Assembly: GCA_023255625.1 (NCBI GenBank) | Contig: JAHFLF010000001.1 | Coordinates: forward strand, 30,255-94,254 | Direction: 5' to 3' | Length of the DNA: 64,000 nucleotides | Origin: Candidatus Harrisonbacteria bacterium | GTDB taxonomy: Bacteria > Patescibacteriota > Minisyncoccia > UBA6257 > 1-14-0-10-44-23 | Part shown: positions 8,050 through 50,426 of the stretch, piece by piece | Position numbering within the stretch: position 1 is the stretch's first letter | Layout of the letters: every line of letters starts with the position of its first letter | Made by a program: the position numbers and the translations under genes | Notes under the pieces: model-generated | What the model was told of the DNA's origin: nothing | The model's database searches: none | What the model saw: only the letters and a program-made list of their open reading frames with translations

Positions 8050-8125
8050 GGGCGCAGGGTTTATGTTTTGCGGCCATCCCGTAGGGTGAGCCCGGCCGCA
8101 AAACATAAACCCTGATCCCGCTTGT
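8050..8125. repeat. Long hairpin element (21-bp perfect stem cagggtttatgttttgcggcc / ggccgcaaaacataaaccctg, loop atcccgtagggtgagccc)
   Basis: Read from the sequence. The loop is shared, inverted and with one mismatch, with the 44797..44860 hairpin. Confidence 0.65.
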
Positions 8126-27684: not shown

Positions 27685-27777
27685 CGGACTAGACTGGGTT
27701 GCAAAAAATATACCAAAAGGCGGCCGTAAAGAAGTCCTGGCCGGTCTTTGGTATATTTTTTGCAACCCACCAAAATT

Positions 27778-35110: not shown

Positions 35111-36810
35111 ACAACCTCGGCGTTGTAGCAAGTTTCGCAATAGACTATGTCGGGCCGGTCGGGCGCAAAACTAGTAATAAACTTATTGGCGCAGCCCGGC
35201 TTCATGCACTGGCGATCATAAAATATGGCTTTGTTGCGTTGAATAATTCGGGCGGAGTGGCGGCAATCTATGCATGTCCGTGGAAGAGGAATTTCGAACT
35301 GGCGCAAGAATTGTAACTCCGGACCAATAATGCGATACGCTTTTTTACACTCTGCACACTGAATGATCTGCTTCACGATATCATCCTGCGCATTACCAAT
35401 AGAATCCGGAAGCTGCGCAGCAGTCATCGTCGTTTGATACTCTGTTGGATTTGGTTCTTGCCACCGCGCACCAAATGCGAGCGCCTCCTCTTTAGAAAGC
35501 TTAAAATGCTCGGGGCTGATACTTTGATCGTACGCAAATGGAGAAAATTCCGGCGGAAAAAATTCACCGTATGCGTATGTCCTACCCTGTTTATCTACAT
35601 GCGGCATCGTATTCATCTGCTCAATAATTTTTTTGCGCAACGCAAAATAATCTTCTTTAGAGTATTGCTTATTCAAAATACAGTACTGCTTGTTTCTGAC
35701 TGACACGCAGCCAAATAAATTCATGGCAGTCCCGCCGCAGTGCATGCAATATTCAAAGTCTGAACCTCCGTCCCAACACTCCCAGCAGAACTTGAGGCGG
35801 GTTGCTCCCCATCCAGAGGTTGCAGATTCATAGACAAGCTCCGTGGCGCCAGTAACCGTAACATCCATAGAATCAGTAGTCGGCAGTGCCTGCGAATACT
35901 GGATATAGCGCAGATCCTGGCCCTCGGCAATCACATACCCATGGTGTACATTTTTTGAGAAGCTCACAAAATCGCCGCTGACATTTGCGTTCAACATTCC
36001 TTGCAAATTCTTGATAGGAAATGTAAGCCAAAATTCTTTTGCTTTTTGCCACGCTACTGTAAGCCCGCTCCAGGTATCAAGTTTGAGCGCTTCAAGCCGT
36101 TTAAAGTACTCCTCCTTAGTAAGCTGCTCATTATTAAAGCAATAACTCTTATTGCGCAAATTCACGCAGCCGAAACAGTCGGTGCAACCGCGACACTCCC
36201 GAGAAAACCAAATTGAAGCTGACTCGGCACAGAGCGAAGAGAAAAATGCCTTATTGCAAGAAAGCACCCAGAAACAGCCATAACAACTTTCTGACTTTTT
36301 CAGATTAGAATTATCATACGAATTTTTGCATTCATCAATCCCGTTGCCGTATCCGCAGTCTTCGTCATGATTTGCGTTGAAGACTAAATAACAATTTTTA
36401 AGCCCGTCGGCGTTACCAGAGTAATCGCTGTTAACCATATTGATAGCGGCCGAGCGATAACGCGGCACCTTTTGATTGAGCTCCTGCAGTTGCGCCAAAA
36501 ACGGCCGACTTGGATCAAAATCCTGGCCATAACTCATCGGGTCCCATCCTGTCTGCCCAAACCACTCCTTATCATCATAAATAGGAAACCCGCAATCAGC
36601 TGGATAGATACCAACCGTGTCTCTGCCGGTAGTCGCCTCCTTAATCCTAAACAACTTTCGCTCATTGCGAAACAACATTCGCCTGCGCATCCGGCACTGC
36701 GCACACCATGTAGGCGGCGGCACATCAATCTTTTTGTAAAAATCAAAATCCGCCTCTTCGATCACAAAATCTTTTTTACAGTTTTGGCAGTATCTAGTTT
36801 CCGGTCTCAT
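35107..36810 (-). CDS. Cys-rich multi-zinc-ribbon family protein (567 aa)
   Basis: ORF track; family motifs (..IVYCETCYNAEVV). Confidence 0.85.
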   Translation of the reverse strand: MRPETRYCQNCKKDFVIEEADFDFYKKIDVPPPTWCAQCRMRRRMLFRNERKLFRIKEATTGRDTVGIYPADCGFPIYDDKEWFGQTGWDPMSYGQDFDPSRPFLAQLQELNQKVPRYRSAAINMVNSDYSGNADGLKNCYLVFNANHDEDCGYGNGIDECKNSYDNSNLKKSESCYGCFWVLSCNKAFFSSLCAESASIWFSRECRGCTDCFGCVNLRNKSYCFNNEQLTKEEYFKRLEALKLDTWSGLTVAWQKAKEFWLTFPIKNLQGMLNANVSGDFVSFSKNVHHGYVIAEGQDLRYIQYSQALPTTDSMDVTVTGATELVYESATSGWGATRLKFCWECWDGGSDFEYCMHCGGTAMNLFGCVSVRNKQYCILNKQYSKEDYFALRKKIIEQMNTMPHVDKQGRTYAYGEFFPPEFSPFAYDQSISPEHFKLSKEEALAFGARWQEPNPTEYQTTMTAAQLPDSIGNAQDDIVKQIIQCAECKKAYRIIGPELQFLRQFEIPLPRTCIDCRHSARIIQRNKAIFYDRQCMKPGCANKFITSFAPDRPDIVYCETCYNAEVV

Positions 36811-36845
36811 ATTCTCTATTTACCTATTCGTACGAATAAGACAAT
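36811..36845 (-). promoter_or_regulatory. Second copy of the 35-bp spacer with the ATTCGTACGAAT palindrome
   Basis: Identical to 19350..19384. Confidence 0.5.
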
Positions 36846-36847
36846 GG

Positions 36848-38608
36848 CTATGAAACTTCTTGCTGATAACACTGCTCGCAATACACAATTTCGGGCCGGT
36901 CAGGGGCAAAAGGAGTCTCAAATACTGAAGGACAGGGCTTCTCGCCATGAAAATGCATTACGGCGTTTTGATACCCTACCTTCTGAGACTGCCGATTGCA
37001 ATCGCACACACAAGACCAGAGCTGGTGAGGATTCTTCGTAGCAATTCGTGCCTTATGGCGACAATAAAAACATTGTCGAGGAAGCGGAATTTTTAAGCGA
37101 CGATAGAATTTTAGCTCCGCCGGGACAACACGATAGTTTCTTTTACAATCAATGCAGGCAAAAATTTCCTTTGTGATTTCATCTTGTACATCCGCGATAC
37201 CGTCGGGAATCTCCTCGAGTGGCATCGTCTCTTTACCAACCGTCATCTGCAGCTGATCCTGCCACCGCAAACCCTTTGCATCAACCTCATTTCCTGAAAG
37301 TGGAAAATAATCCTGAGCAACACTTTCATTATACGCAAAATACGAAAGTTCTGATGGCAGAAATTCGCCGAAAGCATACGCGATCCCATTTTTATCCAGA
37401 TATGGATTCGCCTGCATATCTTCCTTTATTTTTGTAACTAACGATTCGTATTCCTCTTTAGAATACTGCTTATTCAAAATACAATACTGGGCCTTTTTGA
37501 GCCCAACGCAGCCAAATAAGTCTTTCGAGGAATGACATGCGTCCACGTAAGCAACATTTTCATTGCGCCACGAAAAAATCGCGAACATACTGCGATAGGA
37601 AAGGTCGGGCGTTACGCCTTCGTAGCACTGGTCAAGTTTTCCTCCAACGCTTAGATCATAGGAACCCCGGGGCGTATCTGCATTTTCTACCCATTTGCAA
37701 TCCTCTCCGCGTTGAACGTTAAAACACTGCTTTGAATTTTTACAATTCATTAAGCTATCGCCGGTACAATTCACGCAGTTTCTCTGCGTAGCAAATCTTC
37801 GAGGCGTGCTCAAAAAAATATCTTTAAATTCCTTTTTTGCTTTTTCTACACCGGTGTAGGTATCAAGTCGATAGTCTCGAAGGATCTTTTCGTACTCTTC
37901 TTTTGTATATTGTTTATTTTTAAAGCAATACCGTTTGTGACGTAGACCAACAGACATAAAACAATCAGCGCAGTCTCGACAGTCATAGCAAAAAGAACAA
38001 TCCGATAAGGAAACAGAATAATACACGTACCGACACTGAAAGCACTTTTCGGTGGCAACTGTTTCATATGTAAACTGACAATCCCCCATGCTATTTACTG
38101 CATCAACAATATCTTTGCCATTGATAAGATACGAGCTATAGAGGCACTCTTCGAGTTCCCAGGCGATAAAAACCATATAGCAGTTTTTACTGGAGGCAAA
38201 ATCCTGAGTATATTCACAGTTTACGCTTGTGATGCCGTCATCGTTGGCGGTAGTCCACATCGGCACGCGACGCTGGAGTTCCGCAAACTGCTCTAAGAAT
38301 GTTCGAGTAGGATCATACGTCTGCTCGTAGCTTTTTGGATCCCACTTGTCACTCCACCAACATTTAGGACAATACACAGTATTGATAGGTCCGTTTGGCG
38401 CGTACAGCGAAATAACCGACTTGTGGCACAGAGCACATGTTCGAGAATATAACATCGTATCGTTGCGCCACGAAAGACGGCGCTGCTTGCGACACTCCGG
38501 GCAAAACGTCGGCGGAGGTACCTCTAACTTTTTGTAGAATGCCAAATCTTCGTCTTCGACAATAAACTCTTTTTTGCAATTCTGACATGCGCGGATTTCC
38601 GAATTCAT
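36848..38608 (-). CDS. Cys-rich multi-zinc-ribbon family protein (586 aa)
   Basis: ORF track. The start abuts the stop of the RhuM-Fic/Doc gene. Confidence 0.85.
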   Translation of the reverse strand: MNSEIRACQNCKKEFIVEDEDLAFYKKLEVPPPTFCPECRKQRRLSWRNDTMLYSRTCALCHKSVISLYAPNGPINTVYCPKCWWSDKWDPKSYEQTYDPTRTFLEQFAELQRRVPMWTTANDDGITSVNCEYTQDFASSKNCYMVFIAWELEECLYSSYLINGKDIVDAVNSMGDCQFTYETVATEKCFQCRYVYYSVSLSDCSFCYDCRDCADCFMSVGLRHKRYCFKNKQYTKEEYEKILRDYRLDTYTGVEKAKKEFKDIFLSTPRRFATQRNCVNCTGDSLMNCKNSKQCFNVQRGEDCKWVENADTPRGSYDLSVGGKLDQCYEGVTPDLSYRSMFAIFSWRNENVAYVDACHSSKDLFGCVGLKKAQYCILNKQYSKEEYESLVTKIKEDMQANPYLDKNGIAYAFGEFLPSELSYFAYNESVAQDYFPLSGNEVDAKGLRWQDQLQMTVGKETMPLEEIPDGIADVQDEITKEIFACIDCKRNYRVVPAELKFYRRLKIPLPRQCFYCRHKARIATKNPHQLWSCVCDCNRQSQKVGYQNAVMHFHGEKPCPSVFETPFAPDRPEIVYCEQCYQQEVS

Positions 38609-38609
38609 G

Positions 38610-39611
38610 CTAGTTGGCGAGCAGATTAAGAATGAGTCTAATCATCACCTCTTTTTCTTTCGGATTACTCTCGGCGATAAGTAAAGCAAGCGCGACGAGC
38701 GCGTTGTCATTGATTTTCTTTTCGCCGCTCTTTTTAAGCAATTTATTATTGCGGCTCAAAAACAAGATAAACAAAAATGAGCCGATGCGTTTATTGCCAT
38801 CAGAGAAGGAATGATCTTTGATCACAAAGTAGAGTAAATGCGCAGCTTTTTCTTCAATACTTGGATACAGATGAATACCGCCGAAAGACTGGTAAAGTCC
38901 GGCGATAATACCCTGAAATGATTTATCGCGCTCACTGCCAAACAGGTCGCTCGCCTCGCCTTTGTTCATCAGAGCAATTTTTAGCTCGTCAATCGCACTA
39001 CGGGCATCTTCATAAAGTAGTAAACGACCGCCAGCTTTCTTAAGTATCGGGGTTTCAAGTCGCTGCTCATCGTATTTCTGCAACAACAACCATGCGTTAG
39101 CGTAACCGCTAATCACTTCAAGCAAACCGCTTGTCTCATCACTTGAAAGCATTTTCTGTTTTGCCCGTTCCAGCAAATCCAGCGTCTTTCTAAATTCAAT
39201 AAGCTGTTTGCCTTGCAGCTGTTTGAGACGTTGCTCATTTACCGTCACACCTTTCAAGATATGATCCTTGAGAACATTCGTTGCCCATCGACGAAACTCA
39301 ATGCCGCGTCGGGTATTTGTTCGGTAACCAACTGCGAGGATGATATCAAGATTATAAAAACTGACTGGTTTATCAGAATTTGGAATGTGCATTTTTTGCA
39401 CATTGCTTTTTGTATCAACCTCACCATCCTTGAGAATGTTGCGAATATGTTTGGTTACCACTGTCCGGTCAATACCGAATAAATCAGTAATTTGACCCTG
39501 GGTCAGCCACACCGTCTCGCCACTAAAACGCACTTCAACCGAAGCGTTACGCTTTTTATCTTGATAGATAATTATCTCACCTCTATCCTGCTGCTTTTTC
39601 GTCTTTGCCAT
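38610..39611 (-). CDS. RhuM-family virulence protein with C-terminal Fic/Doc domain
   Basis: N-terminal EIIIYQDKKRNASVEVRFSGETVWLTQGQITDLFG is RhuM-like. The C-terminal HSFSDGNKRIGSF is the Doc/Fic HxFx(D/E)GNKR motif. Confidence 0.7.
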   Translation of the reverse strand: MAKTKKQQDRGEIIIYQDKKRNASVEVRFSGETVWLTQGQITDLFGIDRTVVTKHIRNILKDGEVDTKSNVQKMHIPNSDKPVSFYNLDIILAVGYRTNTRRGIEFRRWATNVLKDHILKGVTVNEQRLKQLQGKQLIEFRKTLDLLERAKQKMLSSDETSGLLEVISGYANAWLLLQKYDEQRLETPILKKAGGRLLLYEDARSAIDELKIALMNKGEASDLFGSERDKSFQGIIAGLYQSFGGIHLYPSIEEKAAHLLYFVIKDHSFSDGNKRIGSFLFILFLSRNNKLLKKSGEKKINDNALVALALLIAESNPKEKEVMIRLILNLLAN

Positions 39612-39650
39612 GTATCTATACTACAACCTACCACCTACTCCCTACAACCT

Positions 39651-41177
39651 CTATATAAGCGGCTCCGGATTATCTATCGCGGGCTGGACGAGCTTGCTGC
39701 CGTCCGGATTTTTACCGCCGGTGATGATGGCCTTTTCTTGTGCAGAACGAATAATTGTTGACTCCTCTTCCTGAATCAATTTTTTAGCATCGCCGACGGG
39801 GATGGTGTACTTGCGGCGGCTCGCCTCAATAATCCGGTCTTTGTAACTCGGATGATTAGGCGGCATTATTTTGAGCGTGGCCGCTGAAAATGCATCGTAG
39901 GTCTCCCCGTCAATCGTCATCTTAATGTAAAATTCTCGCTTACCAAGGTTAATCATGTCTTTAACCTTAAACATCGGAGCAAACTCATCCTCCAAAATAA
40001 CGGCGTCGGCACCACCCACGCGGAAACTGACAATCGTACCGGTGTTACCAAGCACGGCAGCAAGAATCTTAGGCAGCAGCTGGCCCATGTACTGGTGCGC
40101 GATAATCAGGTTGATGCCGTATTTACGCGCCTCGGATAAAATGTTTTCAAAGGTCTCGGTAACAATGTTTTGAAACTCGTCAATGTAGAGATAAAAATCA
40201 AGGCGGTCTTTTTCGGGCATACGCGCGCGGGCCATACCCGCCTGCTTAATCTTGGTGAGAAACATTGCGCCAAAGAATGAAGAATTTTCTTCGCCCAGCC
40301 GACCCTTAGATAAATTGATGAGCACAATCTTCTGCTCGTTCATTAACTTTTCCAAATCAATCTTGTTGGTCTTCTGGCCAAAAATGTTGCGTAGGAGCGG
40401 GTCAGACAAAAACTGGCCGAGCTTATTAACCAGCGGGATAATCGCGTCGGTATCAAACTTTTCGCTCCAATCCGCAAATTCAATAGCCCAGAAGCGTTTG
40501 ACCATGTCGTCCTCAATGTACTCAATCACTTTTTGGCGGTAGTTACGGTCGGTCAGCATTGAGATCATACCGCGCATGGTGGCGTGCGGATAATCTAAAA
40601 GTGCCAGCGTGGTAAATCGGAATACGTGCTCAAGTCGCGGCGTCCAGTTTGCGCCAAACTGCTTTTCTAAGACCTCAATAAGTCCTTGGGTCAGCTGGTG
40701 CTTAAAGTCCATGTCAATGTTGGCGAGCGGGTTAAACGACGACGGGAATTGTGCGTCGCCCGGGTCAATAAGACACACATCCTCAATACGCCGTTCAGGA
40801 ATGGCATGCAAAATTTCTTCAACCACATCGCCGTGCGGATCCATCAGACAAAATCCCTTATTAAATTCAATATCCTGCCGGATGAGCAGCTCCAATAATT
40901 TTGTTTTACCGACGCCGCTTTTACCAATGACATACATGTGCCGCTGGCGGTCGGCGCGCTTAATACCAAACACAAATTTTTTCTCTTCAAGCGCGGCAAC
41001 ATAGTTGGTGCGGCCAAAAAAATTAATATCTTTGGGGTCAACTTTGCCGAGCATCGGTAGGTCTGGCGGAGGCGGCGCGTACTTAACAATCTGCACACGC
41101 GAAGAAACCGGCGGAAGAGGTTGCGCCGGAGCAGCAGATTGAGTTGGTTGTGGTTTTATGTTGTCAGCCATAAACAA
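39651..41177 (-). CDS. FtsK/HerA/TraD-VirD4-like P-loop ATPase, paralog of the 27778..29622 gene (508 aa)
   Basis: RQRHMYVIGKSGVGKTKLL, MDPHGD, FYLYIDEFQNI, LIIAHQYMGQL. The motif order and spacing match the other ATPase. Confidence 0.65.
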   Translation of the reverse strand: MFMADNIKPQPTQSAAPAQPLPPVSSRVQIVKYAPPPPDLPMLGKVDPKDINFFGRTNYVAALEEKKFVFGIKRADRQRHMYVIGKSGVGKTKLLELLIRQDIEFNKGFCLMDPHGDVVEEILHAIPERRIEDVCLIDPGDAQFPSSFNPLANIDMDFKHQLTQGLIEVLEKQFGANWTPRLEHVFRFTTLALLDYPHATMRGMISMLTDRNYRQKVIEYIEDDMVKRFWAIEFADWSEKFDTDAIIPLVNKLGQFLSDPLLRNIFGQKTNKIDLEKLMNEQKIVLINLSKGRLGEENSSFFGAMFLTKIKQAGMARARMPEKDRLDFYLYIDEFQNIVTETFENILSEARKYGINLIIAHQYMGQLLPKILAAVLGNTGTIVSFRVGGADAVILEDEFAPMFKVKDMINLGKREFYIKMTIDGETYDAFSAATLKIMPPNHPSYKDRIIEASRRKYTIPVGDAKKLIQEEESTIIRSAQEKAIITGGKNPDGSKLVQPAIDNPEPLI

Positions 41178-41280
41178 TAATCACTAACATGCTAATACGG
41201 ACAAATATGCGAATAGGAACTGCTTGTTTTCATTAGTATATTAGTATTGATTCGCGTGTTCGTGAATACTGCTAGAATTC
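41178..41280 (-). promoter_or_regulatory. Conserved ~100-nt leader/promoter region upstream of ATPase 39651..41177
   Basis: Homologous to 42061..42132 (shared tagcagtattcacgaacaYgcgaat ... catatttgt ... gttagYgattaYtgt before the ATG). Confidence 0.45.
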
Positions 41281-42060
41281 TTTGAGCTCCTTTAGAAAAT
41301 CTCGAAAGGCAAACAAGGCGCGTTCGGCCTGGTGCGTGGTGAGCGCGAACCCGGGCGTGTGCGCCAACTCGTTACGCAGCCGGTGCGCATCAAAAACTTT
41401 GTCGATCAATTTGCTGCCAGCCCAGCGCGCATTTTGCAGCCGCTCGGCCATACCCTCGCCGGCCACACCGCGCTGTTTAAGCACCATATCTACCAGCGCG
41501 TCGGCCTCCATCACCGCCCAGCGCAGATTTTCAACCGTGCCTGTGTTCGCCCGATGCACAATATTGGCCCAGTGCTTGAGAGTCGCTGGATTTCCCTGTG
41601 GTTGCGGCGTGTGCACAGTTGGAGCGGCGTGTGCGTGCGCCGGAGACGCCCCGTGGACAGCGCCATGATCAGCATGCGAATGTGGTTTAAGTCGAAAAAG
41701 TTTCATGTTTTGCTTATAGGGCTGCACCTTGATTGCCGCAAACACAAACATAAAAACCAAAAATATATCCAAGATGACAAAAATCGGCGTGATGTTATTA
41801 GTCCAAATTGTTACAAAAACAGACCATCCCTGGCTAAAAAACACAGTACCACCGAAGGTATCGAAAAGATGCTGCCGACTACCCTCGATGAAGAAAGAAA
41901 GCAAAAGATAAGCGAAGAATAAAATCCCGACTCCGGTTAAAACCCACTGCTCCTGCTGCAGCAGTCCTTCATGAAAGTGATGTCCTTTGTGTACTCCCAT
42001 AACAGTAATCGCTAATATTTTAATTTGAGCTAATCTACGAAGTACAGTAATCGCTAACAC
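41272..42060 (-). CDS. hypothetical membrane protein with His-rich linker and C-terminal helical domain
   Basis: ORF track with 2-3 predicted TM segments. Its upstream leader is homologous to the leader of ATPase 39651..41177. Confidence 0.5.
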   Translation of the reverse strand: MLAITVLRRLAQIKILAITVMGVHKGHHFHEGLLQQEQWVLTGVGILFFAYLLLSFFIEGSRQHLFDTFGGTVFFSQGWSVFVTIWTNNITPIFVILDIFLVFMFVFAAIKVQPYKQNMKLFRLKPHSHADHGAVHGASPAHAHAAPTVHTPQPQGNPATLKHWANIVHRANTGTVENLRWAVMEADALVDMVLKQRGVAGEGMAERLQNARWAGSKLIDKVFDAHRLRNELAHTPGFALTTHQAERALFAFRDFLKELKEF

Positions 42061-42132
42061 TCGAATGCAAACAAATATGCCAATGAATGTCTATTCGAAT
42101 ATTAGTCTTTATTCGCATGTTCGTGAATACTG
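42061..42132 (-). promoter_or_regulatory. Second copy of the conserved leader, upstream of membrane protein 41272..42060
   Basis: See 41178..41280. Confidence 0.45.
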
Positions 42133-43578
42133 CTACTTAAACTTATCCAGCACAGACTCATCGGCATAAATCGGCAGACCGGCCGGAGCACCCATCTTGC
42201 GGGATTCAACCCGTTGCGTGAGCGGCCCGGTAACAACGAGCGTGGTCGGTGGATGAAAAAGTGTCGCCAAAATTTCACTGGTCAAAATCGTGTTGGCCGA
42301 ATTCCACCAGTTAAATGTGTGCGAGGCGATAAATTGACCGGAAAATTCATGAATGCCCGGTTCACGCTCGCGCCACAAGTGTAGCATTCGATTCTTGCGA
42401 GCACGACGGCGAGTTCGCTTAAACACATAAGGCGGATCAAACCAGCCGGGCTTGGTGTTCATGCCGTCGTTAAAGACCATCGCATTTAAGTCGGCTGCAT
42501 TGTATTGGTTAAATGCACCCTTGATAGCCCGGCGAGGCACGCGGTCCGAGAAAAGATTTTTGGGTGAGATATAGAGCAGCTTAATGTTAGTGTCAAAAGC
42601 CGGTTTACTCAAATTCCGCTCAACCGCTTTCAATATATCTGTCTGTCCGGGTGATTTTTGCAGAAGCGATGTCTTTAAGGCCAGCGCTAGATCATCGCCG
42701 CTCGCGCCGTGCGCCGCCGAGCCCTTGGCAATTTTTGGCGTGCGCAGGTCATCAACAATATGCTGATACTGCTCGCCCCAACTTAAAAAAAGCGGAGAGA
42801 TAACATACTGCACGCCGATAAATTCCTCCGGTCGGATACTGGCCATTGCCTCCATAAATGCAGCCATCGGATCAACCTGATACTCCTCGGTGCTGCTCTC
42901 AAACTGCATATAAGTTTTAATCGGGAAGGCCGGATCTTTACTCAAGACAAAACCATTGGCATACAAATCCTTGCCCTGCAATTCCAGATCGAGGATGCTG
43001 TGTGGAACCCACTTTTCGGTATAATCCTCAACCACCGGCACGATCTCAACCTCCGGATAAGCGGCAAAAAGAGCCGCCTTGACAATCGGCACATACGGTT
43101 CATAAATTTGGGCGTAAAAATGAATCTCGCCGCCCAAACTAACAATCTCAAATGTAAACCAAATCGTCATTTCTCCGAGCAGATATTTTTCACCGAGATG
43201 CCCACGCCAGTTACCCATGCCGGCAATCGCATGAAAAAATTGATCCATACTGCGCGGGCTTCTGGTAATTTCCCGCGGCATCTTCAGTTCAAGCAGCTTA
43301 TATTTTAGCGAAGTCTCGAATGTCCGGTTCCGCCAATATATCCAAAGCGACCGCGTAATCGGCCAAGCAATCGCAAAAAAAATTATCGGCCAGTTTATCT
43401 TAAAAAATGGCGTGATCGCCGCGAAAACAGTTTGGACACCTTGAGCGATGGACATGGGGGAATTAGAAGGATTAGAAGTACTAGGGCAACTAGAAAGATT
43501 AGCGGGGCTAGTTAGTATTATACAACAATATTGGAGACAAAAAAATCTCCCCCTAACACATCTAGCATCCTCTAGCAT
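42133..43578 (-). CDS. hypothetical protein, N-terminally membrane-anchored. The true start is probably the Met at ~43455.
   Basis: The ORF-track start lies inside a 10-bp tandem repeat array. A TATAAT box and a hairpin lie just upstream of the internal Met (MSIAQGV...). Confidence 0.5.
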   Translation of the reverse strand: MLEDARCVRGRFFCLQYCCIILTSPANLSSCPSTSNPSNSPMSIAQGVQTVFAAITPFFKINWPIIFFAIAWPITRSLWIYWRNRTFETSLKYKLLELKMPREITRSPRSMDQFFHAIAGMGNWRGHLGEKYLLGEMTIWFTFEIVSLGGEIHFYAQIYEPYVPIVKAALFAAYPEVEIVPVVEDYTEKWVPHSILDLELQGKDLYANGFVLSKDPAFPIKTYMQFESSTEEYQVDPMAAFMEAMASIRPEEFIGVQYVISPLFLSWGEQYQHIVDDLRTPKIAKGSAAHGASGDDLALALKTSLLQKSPGQTDILKAVERNLSKPAFDTNIKLLYISPKNLFSDRVPRRAIKGAFNQYNAADLNAMVFNDGMNTKPGWFDPPYVFKRTRRRARKNRMLHLWREREPGIHEFSGQFIASHTFNWWNSANTILTSEILATLFHPPTTLVVTGPLTQRVESRKMGAPAGLPIYADESVLDKFK

Positions 43579-43645
43579 CCTCTAGTTGCCTCTAGCATCC
43601 TCTAGTTGCCTCTAGTTGCCTCTAGTTGCCTCTACTCCCGGCCTC
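43561..43645. repeat. Tandem array of 10-bp units (TCTAGCATCC / TCTAGTTGCC, about 8 units)
   Basis: Read from the sequence. It lies upstream of the probable true start and TATAAT box of gene 42133..43578. Confidence 0.7.
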
Positions 43646-43655
43646 TATCTCCCGG

Positions 43656-44708
43656 CTAAACCGCTGCGTATTCCCCGCTTGGCATCCGCTTAAAGTACTT
43701 CTTGTTCTGCAAATTAAAGAGAATCGTCGTCTCTTTAAATATCCGGTGTTTGAGAACTTTGGCAATCAAATCCTTTGGCTTGAGCGGGCCATCTTGTTTG
43801 AGAATGTGCAAAAGTATATCGCGAATCGTACCGGCTGGAAGTGCGTCGTGATCACGCAACGAGTAAATACCGCGGCCCACAAGCAGAAAGCGCTTGTCTT
43901 TAATGAGCTCGTTGTGAATCGTCTGCGTGTTGGTCTTTTTCTTCGGGCGCAGCGTGCGAATCTCGCCGGCAATATCGTCAAAGTGCAGCGGCTTAGTCGC
44001 CTTCTTTAAAATCAAATAAATCCAGTCACGGCTAACCTTTGGGCTGACCTCCGGCCACTCCGTCAAACCAAAATCACCGTACAGGTTGCTGCCGAACTTC
44101 TTGCTGATATTCAAATAGTGCCGGGCCACCTCGGTCTCCAGCTTGTGGAGCTGGCGCACCTCGTGGAAAAACTGCTCAAACTTTTTCTCGTTCAGAGTCT
44201 CATGTTTACGCGCGCGCAGATGCGCAACCAGCTCCTCCAAAAATTCAACGGCTTTTTGCTGATGGCTCTCGGAAAGATGCCAGTGGCTAGAAAGCTCCTC
44301 GTCATCTCGGTGATAAAGCACCTCACCGGAAATCTCTAAAAGAAAACGAACCTGATTGGCAAAATTAACCGGCAGATCCTTGCCGCCATCAGCAAACTGT
44401 TTAATATCAGAAAGCAGATGATCCTCGCGGCGCACGCCACCTGTTTTTGAAAGTTCGGCTTTTGCAGCAGCAACCAGGGCGGCCAAATCACTCTTACTGG
44501 CACGCTTACGAACTTCGGTAATCGCCGAGGCCTCAATCTGGCGAATGCGCTCGCGGGTAACATTAAAAGACTTGCCGAGTTCAGCAAGTGTCTGCTCCTC
44601 GCCGGTGTCCAGTCCATAGCGCTTGGTCAAAACCTTGCGCTGGCGCGCGTCCAGTCCGGAAAAAATTTGCTCAATAATTTGTGCGGTTGTTGGAGTTATC
44701 TGCGGCAT
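43656..44708 (-). CDS. sigma-70 region-4 HTH protein fused to a C-terminal HARE-HTH-like domain
   Basis: LDARQRKVLTKRYGLDTGEEQTLAELGKSFNVTRERIRQIEASAI is sigma70_r4. The C-terminal LHFDDIAGEI...GRGIYSL resembles the HARE-HTH of the RNAP delta subunit. Confidence 0.6.
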   Translation of the reverse strand: MPQITPTTAQIIEQIFSGLDARQRKVLTKRYGLDTGEEQTLAELGKSFNVTRERIRQIEASAITEVRKRASKSDLAALVAAAKAELSKTGGVRREDHLLSDIKQFADGGKDLPVNFANQVRFLLEISGEVLYHRDDEELSSHWHLSESHQQKAVEFLEELVAHLRARKHETLNEKKFEQFFHEVRQLHKLETEVARHYLNISKKFGSNLYGDFGLTEWPEVSPKVSRDWIYLILKKATKPLHFDDIAGEIRTLRPKKKTNTQTIHNELIKDKRFLLVGRGIYSLRDHDALPAGTIRDILLHILKQDGPLKPKDLIAKVLKHRIFKETTILFNLQNKKYFKRMPSGEYAAV

Positions 44709-44796
44709 GAGAAATTAAAATTTGATATTGTGTTATTGCTACTAAGTTATCATGATTATTGAATTCGGTCAACCGGGCAGTAGAAATGTGAATTTT

Positions 44797-44860
44797 ACCT
44801 TTCCGCGCGTTTCAGGTTTTCGGGCCGGGCTCACCCTTCGGGATGGCCCGAAAACCTGAA
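44797..44860. repeat. Long hairpin element (22-bp perfect stem gcgcgtttcaggttttcgggcc / ggcccgaaaacctgaaacgcgc) at the edge of high-GC island 1
   Basis: The loop gggctcacccttcgggat is the reverse complement of the 8050..8125 loop, with one mismatch. Confidence 0.65.
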
Positions 44861-45001
44861 ACGCGCGCAACCTTCTTCATGACTTACTATATAAAATATC
44901 AACCCCCGCGCTCGAGTGCGTCGATACGCGGGGGGACCGCGATTGTGTGTCTGTGGGTTGAGGTCCCGCACGAGGACACCTCCTTCCGCCGGGTTGACCG
45001 G

Positions 45002-45697
45002 CTACTTGGGCTGCTCGTCATCGGTCGCCGGGACAGACACTGCCAGCGTGCCGAGCTCGATGTGGTTGTGGACCTTGAGGAGTTCTTCGAATGTCATCTC
45101 CTCTTCGGGCCCGCCTTCTTCAGGTGTCATTCCGAAGATGATGGTCCACGGCCGCATGATCGGCAGGTGCCGGAGAATCGTCCGACATCCGTGGCAAGGC
45201 GGGAGCGTCTTCGACTCCACCTGGCTCACATCATCGATTTGCGGTTCTGCCGCAATGCCGAGAGCGACCGCGAGGTCGTACCTGGCACGGATAGCACTGC
45301 CGACTGCCATCGGCTCACCGCAAGCCTTCGGGGCGGTGGGTCCGGGCAACGGCTTGACGTTGAACCCGGTCCAGTACTTGTACGCCTTCTCCTTCTCGGG
45401 GTGGCCCTCTGGAAGGCTCCATCTCCAGCCGCTGAAGGCGTACACGACAATCCCGACTTGGTACTTCCGATGCGAGATGCCGTCCTCTCTCGCCTCACGT
45501 CCTCGCCGCTTGAATTCGGACTTGACCGCGCGCCAACGCGCGATGTGTTCTTCCCTTCTCGGAAAGACAAGGCCCGAACCGGCGTCAGCAACTGCAGCTT
45601 CGCTCATCTCGTCCTCCCCTAAGTCCTTGCCGCCAAAGTCTGGCACGCGAACACCGCGCACCGCCCGAAGTGTACAAAATCGCACTTCTTGGGTCAA
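45002..45697 (-). CDS. hypothetical protein in a high-GC island (possible zinc-dependent deaminase-like HxE...PCxxC)
   Basis: GC3-rich codons in this frame only. Contains EGHPEKE ... PPCHGCRTIL. Driven by a perfect TTGACA-N18-TATAAT promoter. Confidence 0.45.
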   Translation of the reverse strand: MTQEVRFCTLRAVRGVRVPDFGGKDLGEDEMSEAAVADAGSGLVFPRREEHIARWRAVKSEFKRRGREAREDGISHRKYQVGIVVYAFSGWRWSLPEGHPEKEKAYKYWTGFNVKPLPGPTAPKACGEPMAVGSAIRARYDLAVALGIAAEPQIDDVSQVESKTLPPCHGCRTILRHLPIMRPWTIIFGMTPEEGGPEEEMTFEELLKVHNHIELGTLAVSVPATDDEQPK

Positions 45698-45702
45698 TGT
45701 AT

Positions 45703-45732
45703 ATTATAGCACACTTTATGCTATTTTGTCAA
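45703..45732 (-). promoter_or_regulatory. Consensus sigma70-type promoter TTGACA-N18-TATAAT driving the high-GC ORF 45002..45697 (leaderless or very short leader)
   Basis: On the minus strand, ttgacaaaatagcataaagtgtgctataat ends ~6 nt before the ATG. Confidence 0.55.
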
Positions 45733-45806: not shown

Positions 45807-46682
45807 ATGCTCACGCCGCAAAAACGCTGGCCAACCTTTGCCGGATTTTTAATCCGGACTATGCATTTTGTTTTAACGATCTGGCGAAAGTGGCGTATTC
45901 TAACTCGTCCCAATTCCCAAACTAGATACCGCGATATCGTCGGCGAGGCAGGAGGAGAAAATTCAATTTTCCACGACGAGCTTCTTCTGGAAGCATTAAC
46001 TCGCGCCGCTTCGTCTCCGGATACGATCCATATAATTAATAAAATACGCGAAATTCTGACAAATACGACAAACCAACTAGCCCGCACAAATTTACCGCTG
46101 ACCATGCTAGTCATTGGTATCGGCTCCGGTAATATGATTCGGATGTTAGCTCGGGAATTCCCGGGCATTTTTATTACCGCCACTGATATCGCCCCTGAAC
46201 CAACGCAAAAATTAAAACATAATCCGGGCGGGTTGAATGTTCTTGTGAATCCGGAAACCACAACTCAAAAATTACAAGCAAAATCATTTTCCATGATCGT
46301 GCTGCCAGCCGGCATTGCCCGCTATCTGAATGATGCCGAGCGATCCGATCTAGTAACCGAGATTCAACGCTTACTGCGACCGGATGGAATTTTTCTTCTA
46401 TCAGAGTTTGCCCATGTGTCGGAATTTTCTAATATGGTTCAAGTTCTTGAAAAAAATAACTTCATCTGCAAAATCTCCAAAAAACATATTCATGGCGTCT
46501 TTCGAAATTCGCTCTATTACCTAACCTGGCATCTTTACTCTCGCTTTTCACTCTGGCGTTTGACAACATGCTGGCTGGCCAAAAAAGAAAAGGTTGATTC
46601 GTTAGATATTTTGATTCGTACTGCCGGTTACCGTTCGGGTAACTTTTACAGTGTAGCAGCGACATATCCGGCTAAGGCCTGA
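45807..46682 (+). CDS. class I SAM-dependent methyltransferase
   Basis: Motif I VIGIGSGNM and post-I LRPDGIFLLSEF. Confidence 0.6.
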   Translation: MLTPQKRWPTFAGFLIRTMHFVLTIWRKWRILTRPNSQTRYRDIVGEAGGENSIFHDELLLEALTRAASSPDTIHIINKIREILTNTTNQLARTNLPLTMLVIGIGSGNMIRMLAREFPGIFITATDIAPEPTQKLKHNPGGLNVLVNPETTTQKLQAKSFSMIVLPAGIARYLNDAERSDLVTEIQRLLRPDGIFLLSEFAHVSEFSNMVQVLEKNNFICKISKKHIHGVFRNSLYYLTWHLYSRFSLWRLTTCWLAKKEKVDSLDILIRTAGYRSGNFYSVAATYPAKA

Positions 46683-46749
46683 AAATATTCCGGGCGGCCT
46701 ACTGGCCGCCCGGAAATTGATCTTCTCTCTTACTATCTATTTTCTTTTT

Positions 46750-49191: not shown

Positions 49192-49265
49192 TGGTGCCCC
49201 CAGATGGAATCGAACCATCATCAGCGGATTAAAAGTCCGTTGCTCTACCACTGAGCTATAGGGGC
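49192..49265 (-). tRNA. tRNA-Lys (anticodon UUU)
   Basis: Minus-strand sequence GCCCCTATAGCTCAGTGGTAGAGCAACGGACTTTTAATCCGCTGATGATGGTTCGATTCCATCTGGGGGCACCA. 7-bp acceptor stem, D-loop AGCTCAGTGGTAGAGC, anticodon loop CTTTTAA, T-loop GGTTCGATTCC, encoded CCA. Confidence 0.85.
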
Positions 49266-49391: not shown

Positions 49392-50045
49392 ATGACTTTC
49401 GGCACAACGCCGGAGGATCAGCTTACCCGAGACAGAGGAGATTGCGAGATGAGAATTCTTCGACAGTTCCCGCCGTTCCTGGAGCCCGGCTCACACGGAG
49501 CGGCTGTGCGCGACATGCAGATCGCGCTCAAGGCCTTCGTGGCTTCGTGGGCGACCGGAGAAGAAGTGGCGGCTCCGGTCATCCCCGACGGCGACTTCAC
49601 GATCGACGGCAAGACCGTGCGTCTGGTCGCCTGGGTCCAGACCATGAAGCTGGAGGTCGAGGGTGACGCAAAGCTCGGGCAGAATTCCCGAGCAAGCTGG
49701 CGAACGAAGTTCCGCGCCACCGTGGACTTCGACACCCTCCCCTACACGGGCCCCACGACCTGGGTGCACGACGGGGTCACGCGGGAGTGGACGGGATGGG
49801 ACGCGGACGATCCGCGCCATCTCTGCAGTTCGTGCAGCGGACGCCGCGACGAACACGACGCTGGGCGGGGCTGCGCCTCGTTCGTGGACAGCGAGGGCGA
49901 GGGCAAACCTGCTCCGGAGGTGCCCGAGCGTGTCTCGCATGCCGCGCCGCCGCTCTCCGGGCCGGACATCCCGGCCTCCGCGGTGTCTGTGGGCGGCTTC
50001 TCCGAGGCGGCCGTGCACGAGATGGGTGACACTCGCCGGATGTGA
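49392..50045 (+). CDS. hypothetical protein in a high-GC (>65%) island
   Basis: Strong GC3 bias in this frame. An AT-rich host-like promoter (TTGACT-N16-TATCTT) lies immediately upstream. Confidence 0.45.
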   Translation: MTFGTTPEDQLTRDRGDCEMRILRQFPPFLEPGSHGAAVRDMQIALKAFVASWATGEEVAAPVIPDGDFTIDGKTVRLVAWVQTMKLEVEGDAKLGQNSRASWRTKFRATVDFDTLPYTGPTTWVHDGVTREWTGWDADDPRHLCSSCSGRRDEHDAGRGCASFVDSEGEGKPAPEVPERVSHAAPPLSGPDIPASAVSVGGFSEAAVHEMGDTRRM

Positions 50046-50109
50046 CGGCGGCTGACCGGGCAGTTCCCGGACGACTGCGCCGCGCGACCTCCGGGTCGCG
50101 CGGCGCTCA

Positions 50110-50260
50110 ACATTTTCTATAAAAATGTAACCTGTAAATTTCTCCGCAGAGCGGCACCGGCTATCTCTTTCTGCTGAAAAAGCGCCTGCTCTCGGCCTCT
50201 TCGGCCTGCGAGAGTGCCGCCTAGCGGAGAAATTTACAGGTTACATTTTTATATTACCCT
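50110..50260. repeat. Nested palindromic element, copy 2 (30-bp perfect outer arms tataaaaatgtaacctgtaaatttctccgc / gcggagaaatttacaggttacatttttata; same conserved core as copy 1) bounding high-GC island 2
   Basis: Read from the sequence. The inner stem shows a compensatory change (GCCC..GGGC in copy 1 against GGCC..GGCC here). Confidence 0.6.
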
Positions 50261-50426
50261 ACACCCACACAGAATTTTTATTTGAAATGGCGGGTTCGCA
50301 GCAGGATGTGCTGCTAGCGGCGGCTCTCGGACGGCGACGGCCGGAGAGCGCAGGGCAATTTTTTAGCAAAAAAATATGCCCGACGCCGTCTGCAGCACAT
50401 CCTGCTGCAAACAGCGGAAAATACAA

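What the first reader, a model, noticed from the sequence alone, without database searches (positions are those of the whole stretch)
44797..45732. High-GC island 1: consensus-promoter-driven GC3-rich ORF bounded by a long hairpin element
Positions ~44870-45700 are above 60% GC against ~45% background. One frame (45002..45697, minus) has strong GC3 bias typical of high-GC donors.

A textbook TTGACA-N18-TATAAT promoter lies in AT-rich sequence directly at its ATG. A 22-bp perfect hairpin (44797-44860) lies at its 3' side.

The protein has an HxE ... PCHGC arrangement weakly reminiscent of zinc deaminase folds. That resemblance is low confidence.

The same module layout recurs at island 2.
Basis: seen in the sequence. 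Interest (0 to 1): 0.65.

Follow-up and report, generated by a model that had tools for sequence, protein, structure and literature searches.

The report
GC-rich divergent cytidine deaminase gene
The GC-rich "island" is a real, strongly promoted gene for a divergent zinc cytidine-deaminase-type enzyme that sits at the same chromosomal spot in related small-genome bacteria; it is not foreign DNA or an assembly error, and why it stays GC-rich is unexplained.

Summary
Positions ~44,900-45,700 are 58-69% GC against 47% for the window. They carry the only perfect TTGACA-N18-TGnTATAAT promoter in 64 kb, and a 26-bp-arm hairpin lies 3' of the gene.

The ORF (best start ATG 45607, 201 aa) is protein-coding. 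It belongs to a family of about 220 clusters of 150-200 aa proteins that are remote homologues of homotetrameric cytidine deaminases (hhalign 99.5%; AlphaFold pLDDT 91; best PDB match 2d30). The zinc and catalytic residues are C96-G97-E98 and P137-C138-H-G-C141.

It is not a recent foreign island. Orthologues at 33-59% identity lie between secF and the same sigma70_r4/HARE-HTH gene in three other lineages. Each has a consensus-grade promoter and GC3 of 0.74-0.81. Four-fold sites are saturated between lineages, and the neighbouring gene's GC4 ranges from 0.32 to 0.62. The GC-richness is therefore maintained; the cause is unknown.

The hairpin is separate from the gene. It is one copy of a dispersed palindromic element with a conserved 18-nt loop and variable stems, found at 28 metagenomic loci and absent from the orthologous loci.

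Island 2 is an orphan ORF, so the claimed "same module" is only loosely supported.

The parts
45703..45732 (-). Promoter of the deaminase gene: TTGACA-N18-(TG)cTATAAT, 12/12 consensus with an extended -10
   Evidence: the only perfect match in 64 kb, with 0.03 expected. The -10 block TGnTATAATATA is invariant in the four orthologous loci. L001 and L008 also carry a perfect TTGACA-N18-TATAAT. By my reading of the sequence, L003 has TTGCAT-N17-TATAAT.
45608..45695 (-). Inferred GC-rich 5' leader of about 88 nt. The transcription start is inferred from the -10 box and was not measured.
   Evidence: Read from the sequence. The leader start TGACCCAA is partly conserved with L003. Rfam gives no match.
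45002..45607 (-). CDS of 201 aa (stop included): a divergent cytidine-deaminase-fold zinc enzyme. Zn/catalytic residues are C96, E98, C138 and C141. The listed TTG (45697) and GTG (45661) starts are probably upstream of the true start.
   Evidence: Differences against the L001 orthologue by codon position are 62/45/100, with 49 synonymous codon changes. The HMM search defines a family of 221 clusters. 57 of 61 members hit PF00383. The family profile hits PDB cytidine deaminases at E=1e-17. AlphaFold pLDDT is 91.2. Foldseek gives 2d30, TM 0.83. hhalign against canonical CDA gives 99.5%.
44891..44936 (-). Terminator-like GC-rich hairpin (44903-44936) followed by a U-rich tract (44891-44902). This is the inferred 3' end of the GC-rich transcription unit.
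   Evidence: Fold of 44780-45010(-). GC drops from 0.68 to about 0.5 here. Function is inferred.
44801..44870 (-). Type A palindromic element: 26-nt arms around the conserved loop AUCCCGAAGGGUGAGCCC. It lies between the deaminase terminator and the next gene's promoter.
   Evidence: The family was found at 28 metagenome loci and at window 8050-8119. Covariation: 96.6% paired, and 24 of 26 pairs show changes on both sides. The covariance model scores this copy at 77 bits. It is absent from orthologous loci L001, L003 and L008.
44744..44772 (-). Promoter-like TTGACC-N17-TAACTT of the downstream sigma70_r4/HARE-HTH gene
   Evidence: Read from the sequence. The same TTGAC(C/A)-N17-TAACTT stands before the orthologous gene in L003 and L008.
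43656..44708 (-). Context: sigma70 region 4 / HARE-HTH protein (350 aa), the conserved downstream neighbour
   Evidence: Pfam. It is 86% identical to the L003 orthologue, while the deaminase is only 49% identical.
45807..46682 (+). Context: SAM-methyltransferase gene with host-like GC (0.44). It lies between secF and the deaminase only in this lineage.
   Evidence: Pfam; GC. In L001, L003 and L008 the deaminase directly follows secF.
46688..46715 (.). Bidirectional terminator hairpin after secF, conserved in relatives
   Evidence: Equivalent GC-rich hairpins follow secF in L001 (same core CCGGGCGGCCTACTGGCCGCCCGG), L003 and L008.
49449..50045 (+). Island 2 ORF (198 aa from ATG 49449, with a GAGGAG ribosome-binding site): GC 0.67-0.74, GC3 0.80, no homologue found
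   Evidence: Only a self hit among 5.8 billion proteins. No match in Pfam, NCBIfam, PADLOC, PHROGs or PDB.
50077..50106 (+). Island 2 terminator-like hairpin (13-bp GC stem, 4-nt loop)
50118..50253 (+). Type B Y-shaped palindromic/structured element (40-nt outer arms)
50294..50412 (-). Type B element, diverged copy in the opposite orientation
8050..8119 (+). Second type A element in the window. The loop differs at one base; the stem sequence is different but fully compensated.

Best explanation
Island 1 is a single-gene chromosomal transcription unit of about 0.8 kb in a small-genome bacterium. The host is probably Patescibacteria/CPR; this is an inference from gene content and from one relative annotated as Wildermuthbacteria.

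The unit starts at a perfect extended-10 sigma-70 promoter (45732-45703). It runs through a leader of about 88 nt and a 201-aa CDS (45607-45002) to a terminator-like hairpin (44936-44891).

The protein is a divergent member of the homotetrameric cytidine-deaminase (CDA) superfamily. It keeps the three Cys zinc ligands and the catalytic Glu. It most likely deaminates a cytosine-containing nucleoside or a close analogue. The default reading is pyrimidine salvage.

The gene is long-resident and syntenic, and it evolves fast. It is not a recent import. Some force that I could not identify, either selection or a biased process, holds its GC content high across lineages.

The long hairpin is an unrelated dispersed palindromic element. 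It landed between this gene's terminator and the next gene's promoter.

Shown: coding status, family and fold, conserved catalytic residues, synteny, conserved promoter, maintained GC, independence of the hairpin.
Inferred: transcription start, start codon, terminator function, substrate, host lineage.
For: Coding:
- Substitutions against the L001 orthologue concentrate at third codon positions (62/45/100).
- There are 49 synonymous codon changes.

Family and fold:
- The HMM search found 221 clusters at E<=1e-3.
- C96, E98, C138 and C141 are invariant or nearly so across 61 members.
- 57 of 61 members hit PF00383, and 57 of 61 hit an NCBIfam cytidine-deaminase model.
- The family profile matches PDB cytidine deaminases: 2d30 at 1.3e-17 and human CDA at 1.3e-15.
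- The AlphaFold model has pLDDT 91.2.
- Its top 27 Foldseek hits are all tetrameric cytidine deaminases; the best has TM 0.83.
- hhalign against canonical CDAs gives 99.5% probability, E=4e-22.

Synteny:
- Orthologues in L001 (59%), L003-L007 (47-49%) and L008 (33-34%) lie directly after secF.
- Where the contig reaches that far (L003-L008, not the 1.2-kb L001), the same sigma70_r4/HARE-HTH gene follows.

Promoter:
- It is unique in the window.
- The -10 block is invariant in four lineages.

Maintained GC:
- Four-fold sites differ at 55-73% between orthologues, which is saturation. Deaminase GC4 is still 0.71-0.79 in all four lineages.
- The adjacent sigma-like gene has GC4 of 0.32-0.62.
- 8 of 9 family loci examined are more GC-rich than their neighbours.

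Not an artefact:
- L002, an independent ENA assembly, is 99.994% identical to the window over 15.7 kb spanning both junctions.
- The gene and its neighbours also appear in a Logan contig and in a 601,890-bp NCBI contig.

Salvage hint:
- The family member in L010 lies near nucleoside deoxyribosyltransferase-like, NUDIX and amino-acid-kinase-fold genes; the last may be a UMP kinase.
Against: - The window protein alone matches no Pfam or NCBIfam model above threshold (PF00383 E=0.26) and no PDB sequence. The assignment rests on the family profile.
- The family replaces the ribose-contacting Glu of canonical CDAs (N-V-E-N) with Lys (N-x-K-P). It also lacks the C-terminal LLPxaF aromatic and carries two inserts near the active site. 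The substrate may therefore not be free cytidine or deoxycytidine.
- The gene evolves much faster than most neighbours: 49% identity against 86-91% for the sigma-like and TrwB-like proteins. That is unusual for a housekeeping salvage enzyme.
- The GC excess is not explained. Ribosomal-protein genes next to a family member do not share it. DnaK in the window has GC3 of only 0.57. There is no dinucleotide footprint of cytosine deamination.
- No transcription or enzymatic data exist.
Confidence: 0.72

Rival explanations
1. Recently acquired foreign island. The gene and its flanks were transferred from a high-GC donor, for example an actinobacterial host, and have not yet drifted to the recipient's composition.
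For: - GC, GC3 and tetranucleotide signature are strong outliers.
- Island 2 lies next to tRNA-Lys, a classic integration site.
- In L010 the family member sits in a 3-gene GC-rich block.
Against: - The gene occupies the same slot, with a conserved promoter, in four lineages whose four-fold sites are saturated. GC4 nevertheless stays at 0.71-0.79 while the neighbour's GC4 ranges 0.32-0.62.
- No homologue closer than 35% identity exists outside the clade, and the family contexts examined are small-genome, moderate-GC contigs.
- Island 1 has no integrase, direct repeats or tRNA at its edges.
Confidence: 0.06
2. The enzyme is not a salvage cytidine deaminase. Instead it detoxifies cytosine-nucleoside antibiotics, as blasticidin-S deaminase does, or it acts on nucleotides or nucleic acids as an editing, mutator or effector enzyme. 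Fast evolution and maximal expression would then reflect a conflict with hosts, competitors or phages.
For: - Blasticidin-S deaminases are also significant structural and sequence matches.
- The ribose-binding Glu is replaced by Lys, the C-terminal lid differs, and there are two inserts.
- The protein is 49% identical between lineages whose neighbours are 86-91% identical.
- The promoter is perfect and conserved.
- The gene lies upstream of a cluster with TrwB/VirD4-like ATPases and a Fic/RhuM protein.
Against: - The best matches by both sequence and structure are nucleoside cytidine deaminases, not blasticidin-S deaminase or nucleic-acid deaminases.
- The orthologous loci show no adjacent immunity-like gene, and I see no secretion or toxin-delivery domain on reading the N-terminus.
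- No PADLOC defence model matches.
- There is no cytosine-deamination dinucleotide footprint in the gene.
Confidence: 0.2
3. Assembly or amplification artefact: a chimeric junction between a high-GC organism's read set and the host contig.
For: Abrupt GC transitions at both ends.
Against: - An independent ENA assembly contig is 99.994% identical across 15.7 kb, including both junctions. A Logan contig from another run has the same gene order.
- Three other lineages show the same layout.
- The GC transitions coincide with a promoter and a terminator.
Confidence: 0.01
4. The GC-rich segment is primarily a structured non-coding RNA, and the ORF is incidental. Open frames are common in GC-rich DNA.
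For: - Several overlapping ORFs are open on both strands.
- The transcript folds better than shuffles, z=-2.5, and z=-4.9 for island 2, though on only 20 shuffles each.
Against: - For island 1 the codon-position substitution pattern, the conserved catalytic residues, the confident fold and the 221-cluster protein family show that it codes for protein.
- Rfam gives no match.
- For island 2 this rival cannot be excluded, because no homologue is available.
Confidence: 0.02

Closest known systems
Homotetrameric (small) cytidine deaminases: Cdd of Bacillus subtilis / B. anthracis (PDB 1jtk, 2d30), human CDA (1mq0); Pfam PF00383, NCBIfam TIGR01354
   Same: - Same fold (Foldseek TM 0.83, rmsd 2.8 A).
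- Same all-Cys zinc site with CxE and PCxxC motifs, and the same spacing.
- Same aromatic-x-VG strand and G-x-N motif.
- Similar size of the catalytic core.
   Different: - N-V-E-N becomes N-x-K-P, so the ribose-contacting Glu is a Lys.
- CAER becomes CGEP in this clade (CAE[Q/P] in the family).
- The C-terminal LLPxaF is replaced by LLxxH.
- There is an N-terminal helical extension of about 25 aa and two inserts: residues ~59-75, and PQxDxxSGxxxxTLH before the PCxxC motif.
- The window protein alone falls below all curated thresholds.
Blasticidin-S deaminase (PDB 1wn5, 2z3g)
   Same: CDA fold with a Cys3 zinc site. Significant profile matches (E about 2e-5) and structural matches.
   Different: The matches are weaker than to nucleoside cytidine deaminases (TM 0.63-0.71, rmsd about 6 A). 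No evidence bears on antibiotic substrates.
Compositionally atypical genomic islands acquired by horizontal transfer
   Same: Sharp GC, GC3 and tetranucleotide anomaly, about 0.8 kb long, carrying its own promoter.
   Different: The gene is present at the same locus in four diverged lineages with saturated synonymous sites. The anomaly is maintained, not decaying. There are no mobility genes or repeats at the borders.
Dispersed palindromic intergenic elements (REP/BIME, ERIC, Correia/NEMIS, Rickettsia palindromic elements) and intrinsic terminators. This comparison concerns the hairpin only.
   Same: Multi-copy and intergenic, and hairpin-forming. Often placed right after a stop codon, with an A-rich 5' foot and a T-rich 3' foot in many copies, and just upstream of a promoter. 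A different 99-nt palindrome lies in-frame inside lepA, as Rickettsia palindromic elements do.
   Different: Conservation is the reverse of that in the classical families. The 18-nt apical loop is nearly invariant, while the 24-44-bp stems differ between loci and are almost perfectly compensated, with very few G-U pairs. The element is not in Rfam.

Membership tests
Cytidine deaminase-like (CDA) superfamily, tetrameric cytidine deaminase type | CDA alpha/beta/alpha fold | tested here: met
   The AlphaFold model has pLDDT 91.2. The top 27 Foldseek PDB hits are tetrameric cytidine deaminases, probability 1.00, TM up to 0.83.
Cytidine deaminase-like (CDA) superfamily, tetrameric cytidine deaminase type | [C/H]-x-E motif (zinc ligand plus catalytic Glu) and P-C-x-x-C motif (two zinc ligands) at canonical spacing | tested here: met
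   C96-G97-E98 and P137-C138-H-G-C141. C138 and C141 are invariant; C96 and E98 are conserved in at least 90% of 61 family members. They align to CAE and PCGxC of canonical CDAs.
Cytidine deaminase-like (CDA) superfamily, tetrameric cytidine deaminase type | Significant sequence similarity to curated family models (PF00383 / TIGR01354) | tested here: inconclusive
   The window protein alone reaches PF00383 E=0.26 (11.6 bits against a 25-bit cut-off) and hits no NCBIfam cytidine-deaminase model. Its family does match: 57 of 61 members hit PF00383, 55 of 61 hit TIGR01354, and profile-profile comparison gives 99.5%.
Cytidine deaminase-like (CDA) superfamily, tetrameric cytidine deaminase type | Nucleoside-binding N-x-E (Glu contacting the ribose) and C-terminal aromatic lid (LLPxaF). 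The roles of these residues are recalled from the B. subtilis and human CDA structures. | tested here: not met
   N83-V-K85-P in place of N-V-E-N, and LLKVH in place of LLPxaF. Orthology with cdd and a cytidine substrate are therefore not established.
Cytidine deaminase-like (CDA) superfamily, tetrameric cytidine deaminase type | Zinc binding, tetramer formation and deaminase activity | not testable with these tools
   Needs biochemistry.
Horizontally acquired genomic island | Atypical composition relative to the host | tested here: met
Horizontally acquired genomic island | Patchy presence: absent from the same site in relatives, or a close homologue in a plausible donor | tested here: not met
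   The gene is present after secF in L001, L003-L007 and L008. The nearest proteins outside the clade are at most 35% identical.
Horizontally acquired genomic island | Mobility signatures at the borders (integrase, tRNA, direct repeats) | tested here: not met
   Island 1 has none. Island 2 does abut tRNA-Lys at 49192-49265, but no integrase or flanking direct repeat was found.
Polymorphic-toxin / secreted deaminase module | N-terminal delivery domain and an adjacent immunity gene | tested here: not met
   The protein is a stand-alone 201 aa. In the orthologous loci the immediate neighbours are secF and the sigma-like gene. PADLOC gives no match.
Canonical intrinsic terminator (for hairpin 44801-44870) | GC-rich stem with a short loop, followed directly by a U-tract | tested here: not met
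   In this copy the stem is followed by GGAAAGG on the minus strand and CAACCTTC on the plus strand, and the loop is 18 nt. Many metagenomic copies do have A-rich and T-rich feet, so the family as a whole may act as terminators.
Dispersed palindromic repeat family (for hairpin 44801-44870) | Multiple copies at unrelated intergenic sites sharing a conserved core | tested here: met
   Two copies in the window and 28 metagenome loci share the exact 22-nt core. The flanking genes are diverse; I identified them (NusA, ClpB, PolX, SecE and others) by reading the translated ORFs, not with a tool. The covariance model finds four further copies.
Any Rfam family (hairpin, leader, island 2) | Score at or above the gathering threshold | tested here: not met
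   Only tRNA-Lys passes. The hairpin gives sub-threshold miRNA-like hits that merely reflect a long stem.

The most novel reading that the evidence does not exclude
The GC excess is limited to the transcription unit. It has been held at GC4 of about 0.7-0.8 through complete synonymous turnover in four lineages, and it is seen in 8 of 9 loci examined for this deaminase family. It is not matched by ribosomal-protein or chaperone genes.

On this reading the excess reflects a locus-specific process tied to the gene itself. Examples are selection on the nucleic acid (extreme mRNA stability, or protection of the deaminase's own template or transcript) or a cis-acting mutational bias. The enzyme would then be a fast-evolving conflict or effector deaminase with a non-cytidine substrate rather than a salvage enzyme.

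Separately, the loop-conserved, stem-variable type A hairpin could be an undescribed class of protein-recognised terminator or insulator element in these bacteria.
Probability: 0.15. Interest if true: 0.7.

Novelty: new variant of a known kind. Interest (0 to 1): 0.45.

Why it matters
First, a compositional 'island' need not be foreign DNA. Here a resident gene keeps a GC content 13-17 points above its genome through saturating divergence. That is a useful caution for island-finding methods. It is also a small open puzzle about what can hold local base composition away from the genomic equilibrium.

Second, the work defines a sizeable and barely annotated branch of the cytidine-deaminase superfamily in small-genome, probably symbiotic bacteria. 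The ribose-binding position is altered, so the substrate may differ from cytidine. Such organisms depend on nucleoside scavenging. Compact deaminases are also of practical interest for base editing.

Third, the hairpin turned out to be one copy of a widespread element with a conserved loop and variable stems. The element sits between genes, often just upstream of strong promoters, and is absent from Rfam.

Tried and rejected
- The ORF searched alone gave nothing usable: Pfam, NCBIfam, PADLOC, PHROGs and PDB.
- AlphaFold with a 2-sequence alignment failed, pLDDT 34.
- Degenerate-pattern scans of genome contigs (twice) and of metagenome contigs (once) for relatives of the protein found none.
- The afdb50 fold library was unavailable.
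- Scans of viral contigs for both hairpin cores found nothing.
- Literature searches for CPR, Saccharibacteria or Patescibacteria cytidine deaminases and for palindromic hairpins returned nothing relevant.
- The cluster look-up gave no organism names, so the host lineage remains an inference.

Hypotheses rejected:
- Expression-linked codon bias as the cause of the high GC3. Ribosomal-protein genes beside a family member have GC3 of 0.49, and DnaK has 0.57.
- Self-inflicted C-to-U mutation. T is low at four-fold sites and no C-containing dinucleotide is depleted.
- A conserved antisense gene. Four-fold sites are saturated.
- The hairpin as an integron attC-like cassette boundary. In attC sites the ends are conserved and the centre varies, which is the opposite pattern.
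- The H69-P70-E71 triplet as the catalytic HxE. It lies in a clade-specific insert.
Full report
**1. The observation**

The composition anomaly is real. In 100-nt windows GC runs at 0.58-0.69 from about 44,900 to 45,700. It falls to 0.34 on both sides, and the whole window is 0.473. By tetranucleotide distance, island 2 (z=6.8) and island 1 (z=4.9) are the two strongest outliers in the 64 kb.

The minus-strand frame 45002..45697 has GC1/2/3 = 0.65/0.47/0.72. Forty-six other ORFs in the window have GC3 of 0.41-0.59.

A perfect TTGACA-N18-TATAAT with a TG extension lies at 45732..45703 on the minus strand. It is the only such site in the window, with 0.03 expected by chance.

The hairpin has 26-nt arms at 44801-44826 and 44845-44870, with a perfect 23-bp core and an 18-nt loop.

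Two details need correcting:
- The TTG that opens the 231-aa ORF lies at or before the predicted transcription start. The plausible start is ATG 45607, preceded by GGGGAGGA. This gives 201 aa and a leader of about 88 nt. It also agrees with the N-termini of the orthologues.
- The catalytic motif is not the H-P-E at residues 69-71 (see section 2).

**2. What the ORF is**

Alone, the protein hits nothing significant: PF00383 at E=0.26, and nothing in NCBIfam, PADLOC or PDB. A word-indexed search of 5.8 billion proteins found only the protein itself and one 60%-identical protein.

Against that relative, the gene shows the pattern of a coding sequence under purifying selection. Differences by codon position are 62/45/100, and there are 49 synonymous codon changes.

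An exhaustive HMM search with the two-sequence profile found 221 clusters at E<=1e-3, all proteins of about 150-200 aa. The evidence on this family is as follows:
- The consensus over 61 members is SYRxFxVG...GxNxKP...CAE...(about 40 aa)...TLHPCxxCR. C138 and C141 are invariant, and C96 and E98 are conserved in at least 90% of members.
- 57 of 61 members hit Pfam dCMP_cyt_deam_1, and 57 of 61 hit an NCBIfam cytidine-deaminase model.
- The family profile hits solved tetrameric cytidine deaminases: 2d30 at E=1.3e-17 and human CDA at 1.3e-15. It hits blasticidin-S deaminase more weakly.
- With the family alignment, AlphaFold gives pLDDT 91.2. The 2-sequence attempt had failed.
- The top 27 Foldseek matches in the PDB are all tetrameric cytidine deaminases, with TM up to 0.83.
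- Profile-profile comparison with canonical CDAs gives 99.5% probability, E=4e-22.

The family is nevertheless a distinct branch:
- Canonical N-V-E-N is N-x-K-P here. As I recall from the B. subtilis and human structures, that Glu contacts the ribose.
- CAER is CGEP in this clade.
- The C-terminal LLPxaF is LLxxH.
- There is an N-terminal helical extension and two inserts.

**3. It is not a recent import or a chimera**

Independent assemblies carry the same junctions. An ENA contig (L002) is 99.994% identical to the window over 15.7 kb. A Logan contig from another run shows the same gene order.

More telling, three further lineages carry the gene in the same place:
- Orthologues are at 59% identity (L001), 47-49% (L003-L007) and 33-34% (L008).
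- All lie directly after secF.
- Where the contig extends far enough (L003-L008), the same sigma70_r4/HARE-HTH gene, a DUF8128 protein and a TrwB-like ATPase follow.
- In the window's lineage a methyltransferase gene of host-like GC has been added between secF and the deaminase.

Every orthologue is GC-rich: GC 0.61-0.625 and GC3 0.74-0.81, against 0.44-0.52 and 0.40-0.60 for its neighbours.

Every orthologue also has a consensus-grade promoter. L001 and L008 have the same perfect TTGACA-N18-TATAAT, and L003 has TTGCAT-N17-TATAAT. The block TGnTATAATATA is invariant.

Four-fold degenerate sites differ at 55-73% between lineages, which is saturation. This holds both in the deaminase and in the adjacent sigma-like gene. 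Deaminase GC4 nevertheless stays at 0.71-0.79, while the neighbour's GC4 ranges from 0.32 to 0.62, as if tracking each lineage's own composition. A leftover donor signature would have decayed, so the GC-richness is being maintained.

The tendency extends through the family. L010, L013, L014 and L046 are 6-12 GC points above their neighbours. Only the most distant member examined, L045, is not.

Three explanations for the GC excess were tested and did not hold:
- Expression-linked codon bias. Ribosomal-protein genes next to the L010 member have GC3 of 0.49 against 0.70 for the deaminase, and DnaK in the window has 0.57.
- Self-inflicted cytosine deamination. T is low at four-fold sites, and TC is enriched rather than depleted.
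- Constraint from an antisense gene. Synonymous sites are saturated.

The GC excess also covers the leader and the 3' untranslated part. It begins right after the promoter and ends at the terminator-like hairpin. I cannot say what maintains it.

**4. Rate of evolution and function**

Between the window and L003, the sigma-like and TrwB-like proteins are 86% and 91% identical. Two proteins of unknown function are 70% and 55% identical. The deaminase is 49% identical. It is thus among the fastest-evolving genes of the neighbourhood, although its catalytic residues are fixed.

The default functional reading is a cytidine/deoxycytidine-type deaminase used in pyrimidine salvage. Three things fit this:
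- The best structural and sequence matches are nucleoside cytidine deaminases.
- The hosts appear to have small genomes. The source contig is 601,890 bp. The window holds housekeeping genes such as DnaK, DnaJ, LepA, aminoacyl-tRNA synthetases, SecDF and DnaB.
- One family member lies beside nucleoside deoxyribosyltransferase-like, NUDIX and amino-acid-kinase-fold genes.

The Glu-to-Lys change at the ribose position, the inserts, the fast evolution and the maximal promoter keep an alternative open. The substrate could be a cytosine nucleoside antibiotic, a nucleotide or a nucleic acid, and the role could be detoxification or conflict. There is no toxin-immunity architecture and no defence-system match.

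**5. The hairpin**

The loop of the 44801-44870 hairpin, read on the minus strand, is AUCCCGAAGGGUGAGCCC. A second hairpin at 8050-8119 has the same geometry and the same loop apart from one base. Its stem sequence is different but fully compensated.

The exact 22-nt core CCATCCCGNAGGGTGAGCCCGG occurs in 30 JGI metagenome contigs. In 28 of them it caps a nearly perfect stem of 24-44 bp whose sequence differs from locus to locus.

On 26 distinct copies:
- 96.6% of cells are paired.
- 24 of 26 pairs show changes on both sides.
- The covariation score is 0.98, against 0.26 in shuffles and about 0.2 with slid partners.
- G-U pairs are rare, which suggests the constraint may act on the DNA palindrome as much as on an RNA.

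The copies lie between unrelated housekeeping genes. I identified these by reading the translated flanking ORFs: YraN-like/NusA, HtrA/ClpB, a membrane protein/PolX, GyrB/NusG, and upstream of SecE. The hairpin often starts within about 30 nt of a stop codon. It often has an A-rich 5' foot and a T-rich 3' foot, and a -35-like TTGAC or a perfect promoter often follows directly.

A covariance model finds further copies in those contigs. It finds none in the orthologous deaminase loci L001, L003 and L008. Those loci carry unrelated, smaller hairpins at this position.

The hairpin is therefore a dispersed, terminator-like palindromic element that happens to sit here, between the deaminase's own terminator and the sigma-like gene's conserved promoter (TTGACC-N17-TAACTT, 44772-44744). 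It is not a boundary of a mobile module. It is not in Rfam.

**6. Island 2**

The ORF (best start ATG 49449, 198 aa, GC3 0.80) has a GAGGAG ribosome-binding site and a weak promoter-like site. A 13-bp terminator hairpin follows it, and it abuts tRNA-Lys.

It has no homologue in any search. Its coding status and origin therefore remain open. For this island, recent transfer or a non-coding role cannot be excluded.

It is followed by two copies of a different, Y-shaped element, type B. A third copy lies at 8134-8256, next to the second type A hairpin. The 'same module layout' is thus a loose resemblance: a GC-rich single-gene unit followed by palindromic elements. It is not evidence of a shared mobile architecture.

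**7. Verdict**

Island 1 is a resident, strongly promoted, fast-evolving gene for a divergent CDA-fold zinc deaminase. It is a new variant within a known superfamily and belongs to a largely unannotated family.

The unexpected result is that its GC-richness is conserved across lineages rather than decaying. This refutes the foreign-island reading and remains unexplained.

I score interest as moderate. The gene identity is fairly ordinary. The maintained compositional anomaly and the loop-conserved hairpin family are the parts a specialist might want to follow up.

Noticed in passing
window 8134-8256 (+), 50118-50253 (+), 50294-50412 (-): Type B element. Three copies of a Y-shaped structure of about 120-135 nt. 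A long outer stem (29-40 bp) differs between copies but is compensated. Two inner hairpins surround a conserved core (CGGCACCGGCTATCT...GCGCCTGCTCTCGGCC...GGCCTGCGAGAGTGCCGCCTAGC). 22 of 48 predicted pairs show changes on both sides. It is not in Rfam, not in viral contigs, and not in the other loci fetched.
   Followed up: partly
window 8050-8119, and loci L015-L044: The type A hairpin family (loop AUCCCGNAGGGUGAGCCC, variable perfect stems) is widespread in metagenome contigs. At one orthologous intergenic site (L015 versus L022) its loop is in opposite orientations relative to the same gene pair. This suggests the loop can flip by recombination between the arms.
   Followed up: partly
window 9555-9653, inside lepA (8251-10284, minus strand): A 99-nt palindrome (22-nt perfect arms, 55 nt between) lies in frame within LepA. 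It encodes 33 residues (SPFPKGSTPAGGRDFESKSLTASGPLPLGKGEA) between RIPPP and ARALIFDS, a stretch that I recall as contiguous in E. coli LepA. It resembles the in-frame palindromic insertions known from Rickettsia.
   Followed up: partly
window 57703-60417 (+): The DnaB helicase gene carries an intein with a LAGLIDADG homing-endonuclease domain (Pfam Intein_splicing and LAGLIDADG_3).
   Followed up: no
window 27695-27769; 17129-17311; 26964-27096: Further long intergenic inverted repeats, with 31-nt arms/13-nt loop, 56-nt arms at 71% complementarity, and 24-nt arms. They have different sequences and may be other palindromic element types.
   Followed up: no
window 35107-44708 (minus strand), and 27778-29622: Downstream of the deaminase lies a co-oriented cluster: a sigma70_r4/HARE-HTH protein, a DUF8128 protein, an unknown protein, a TrwB/VirD4-like ATPase, a RhuM/Fic protein and two large unknown proteins. 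A second TrwB-like ATPase with a zinc finger lies at 27778-29622. The first part of the cluster is syntenic in L003 and L008.
   Followed up: partly
window 7760-8050: A non-coding stretch of about 300 nt upstream of the type A and type B pair. It contains a TATAAT box and a direct repeat (GTACAAGTTGCATTTG, twice). It may be a small RNA gene that the two hairpins terminate.
   Followed up: no
L010 3825-5580: In a more distant genome the deaminase family member is the first of three adjacent GC-rich genes: the deaminase, an unknown 181-aa protein and a PCC-domain protein. Their GC3 is 0.64-0.70, in a contig where other genes have GC3 of 0.34-0.50.
   Followed up: no
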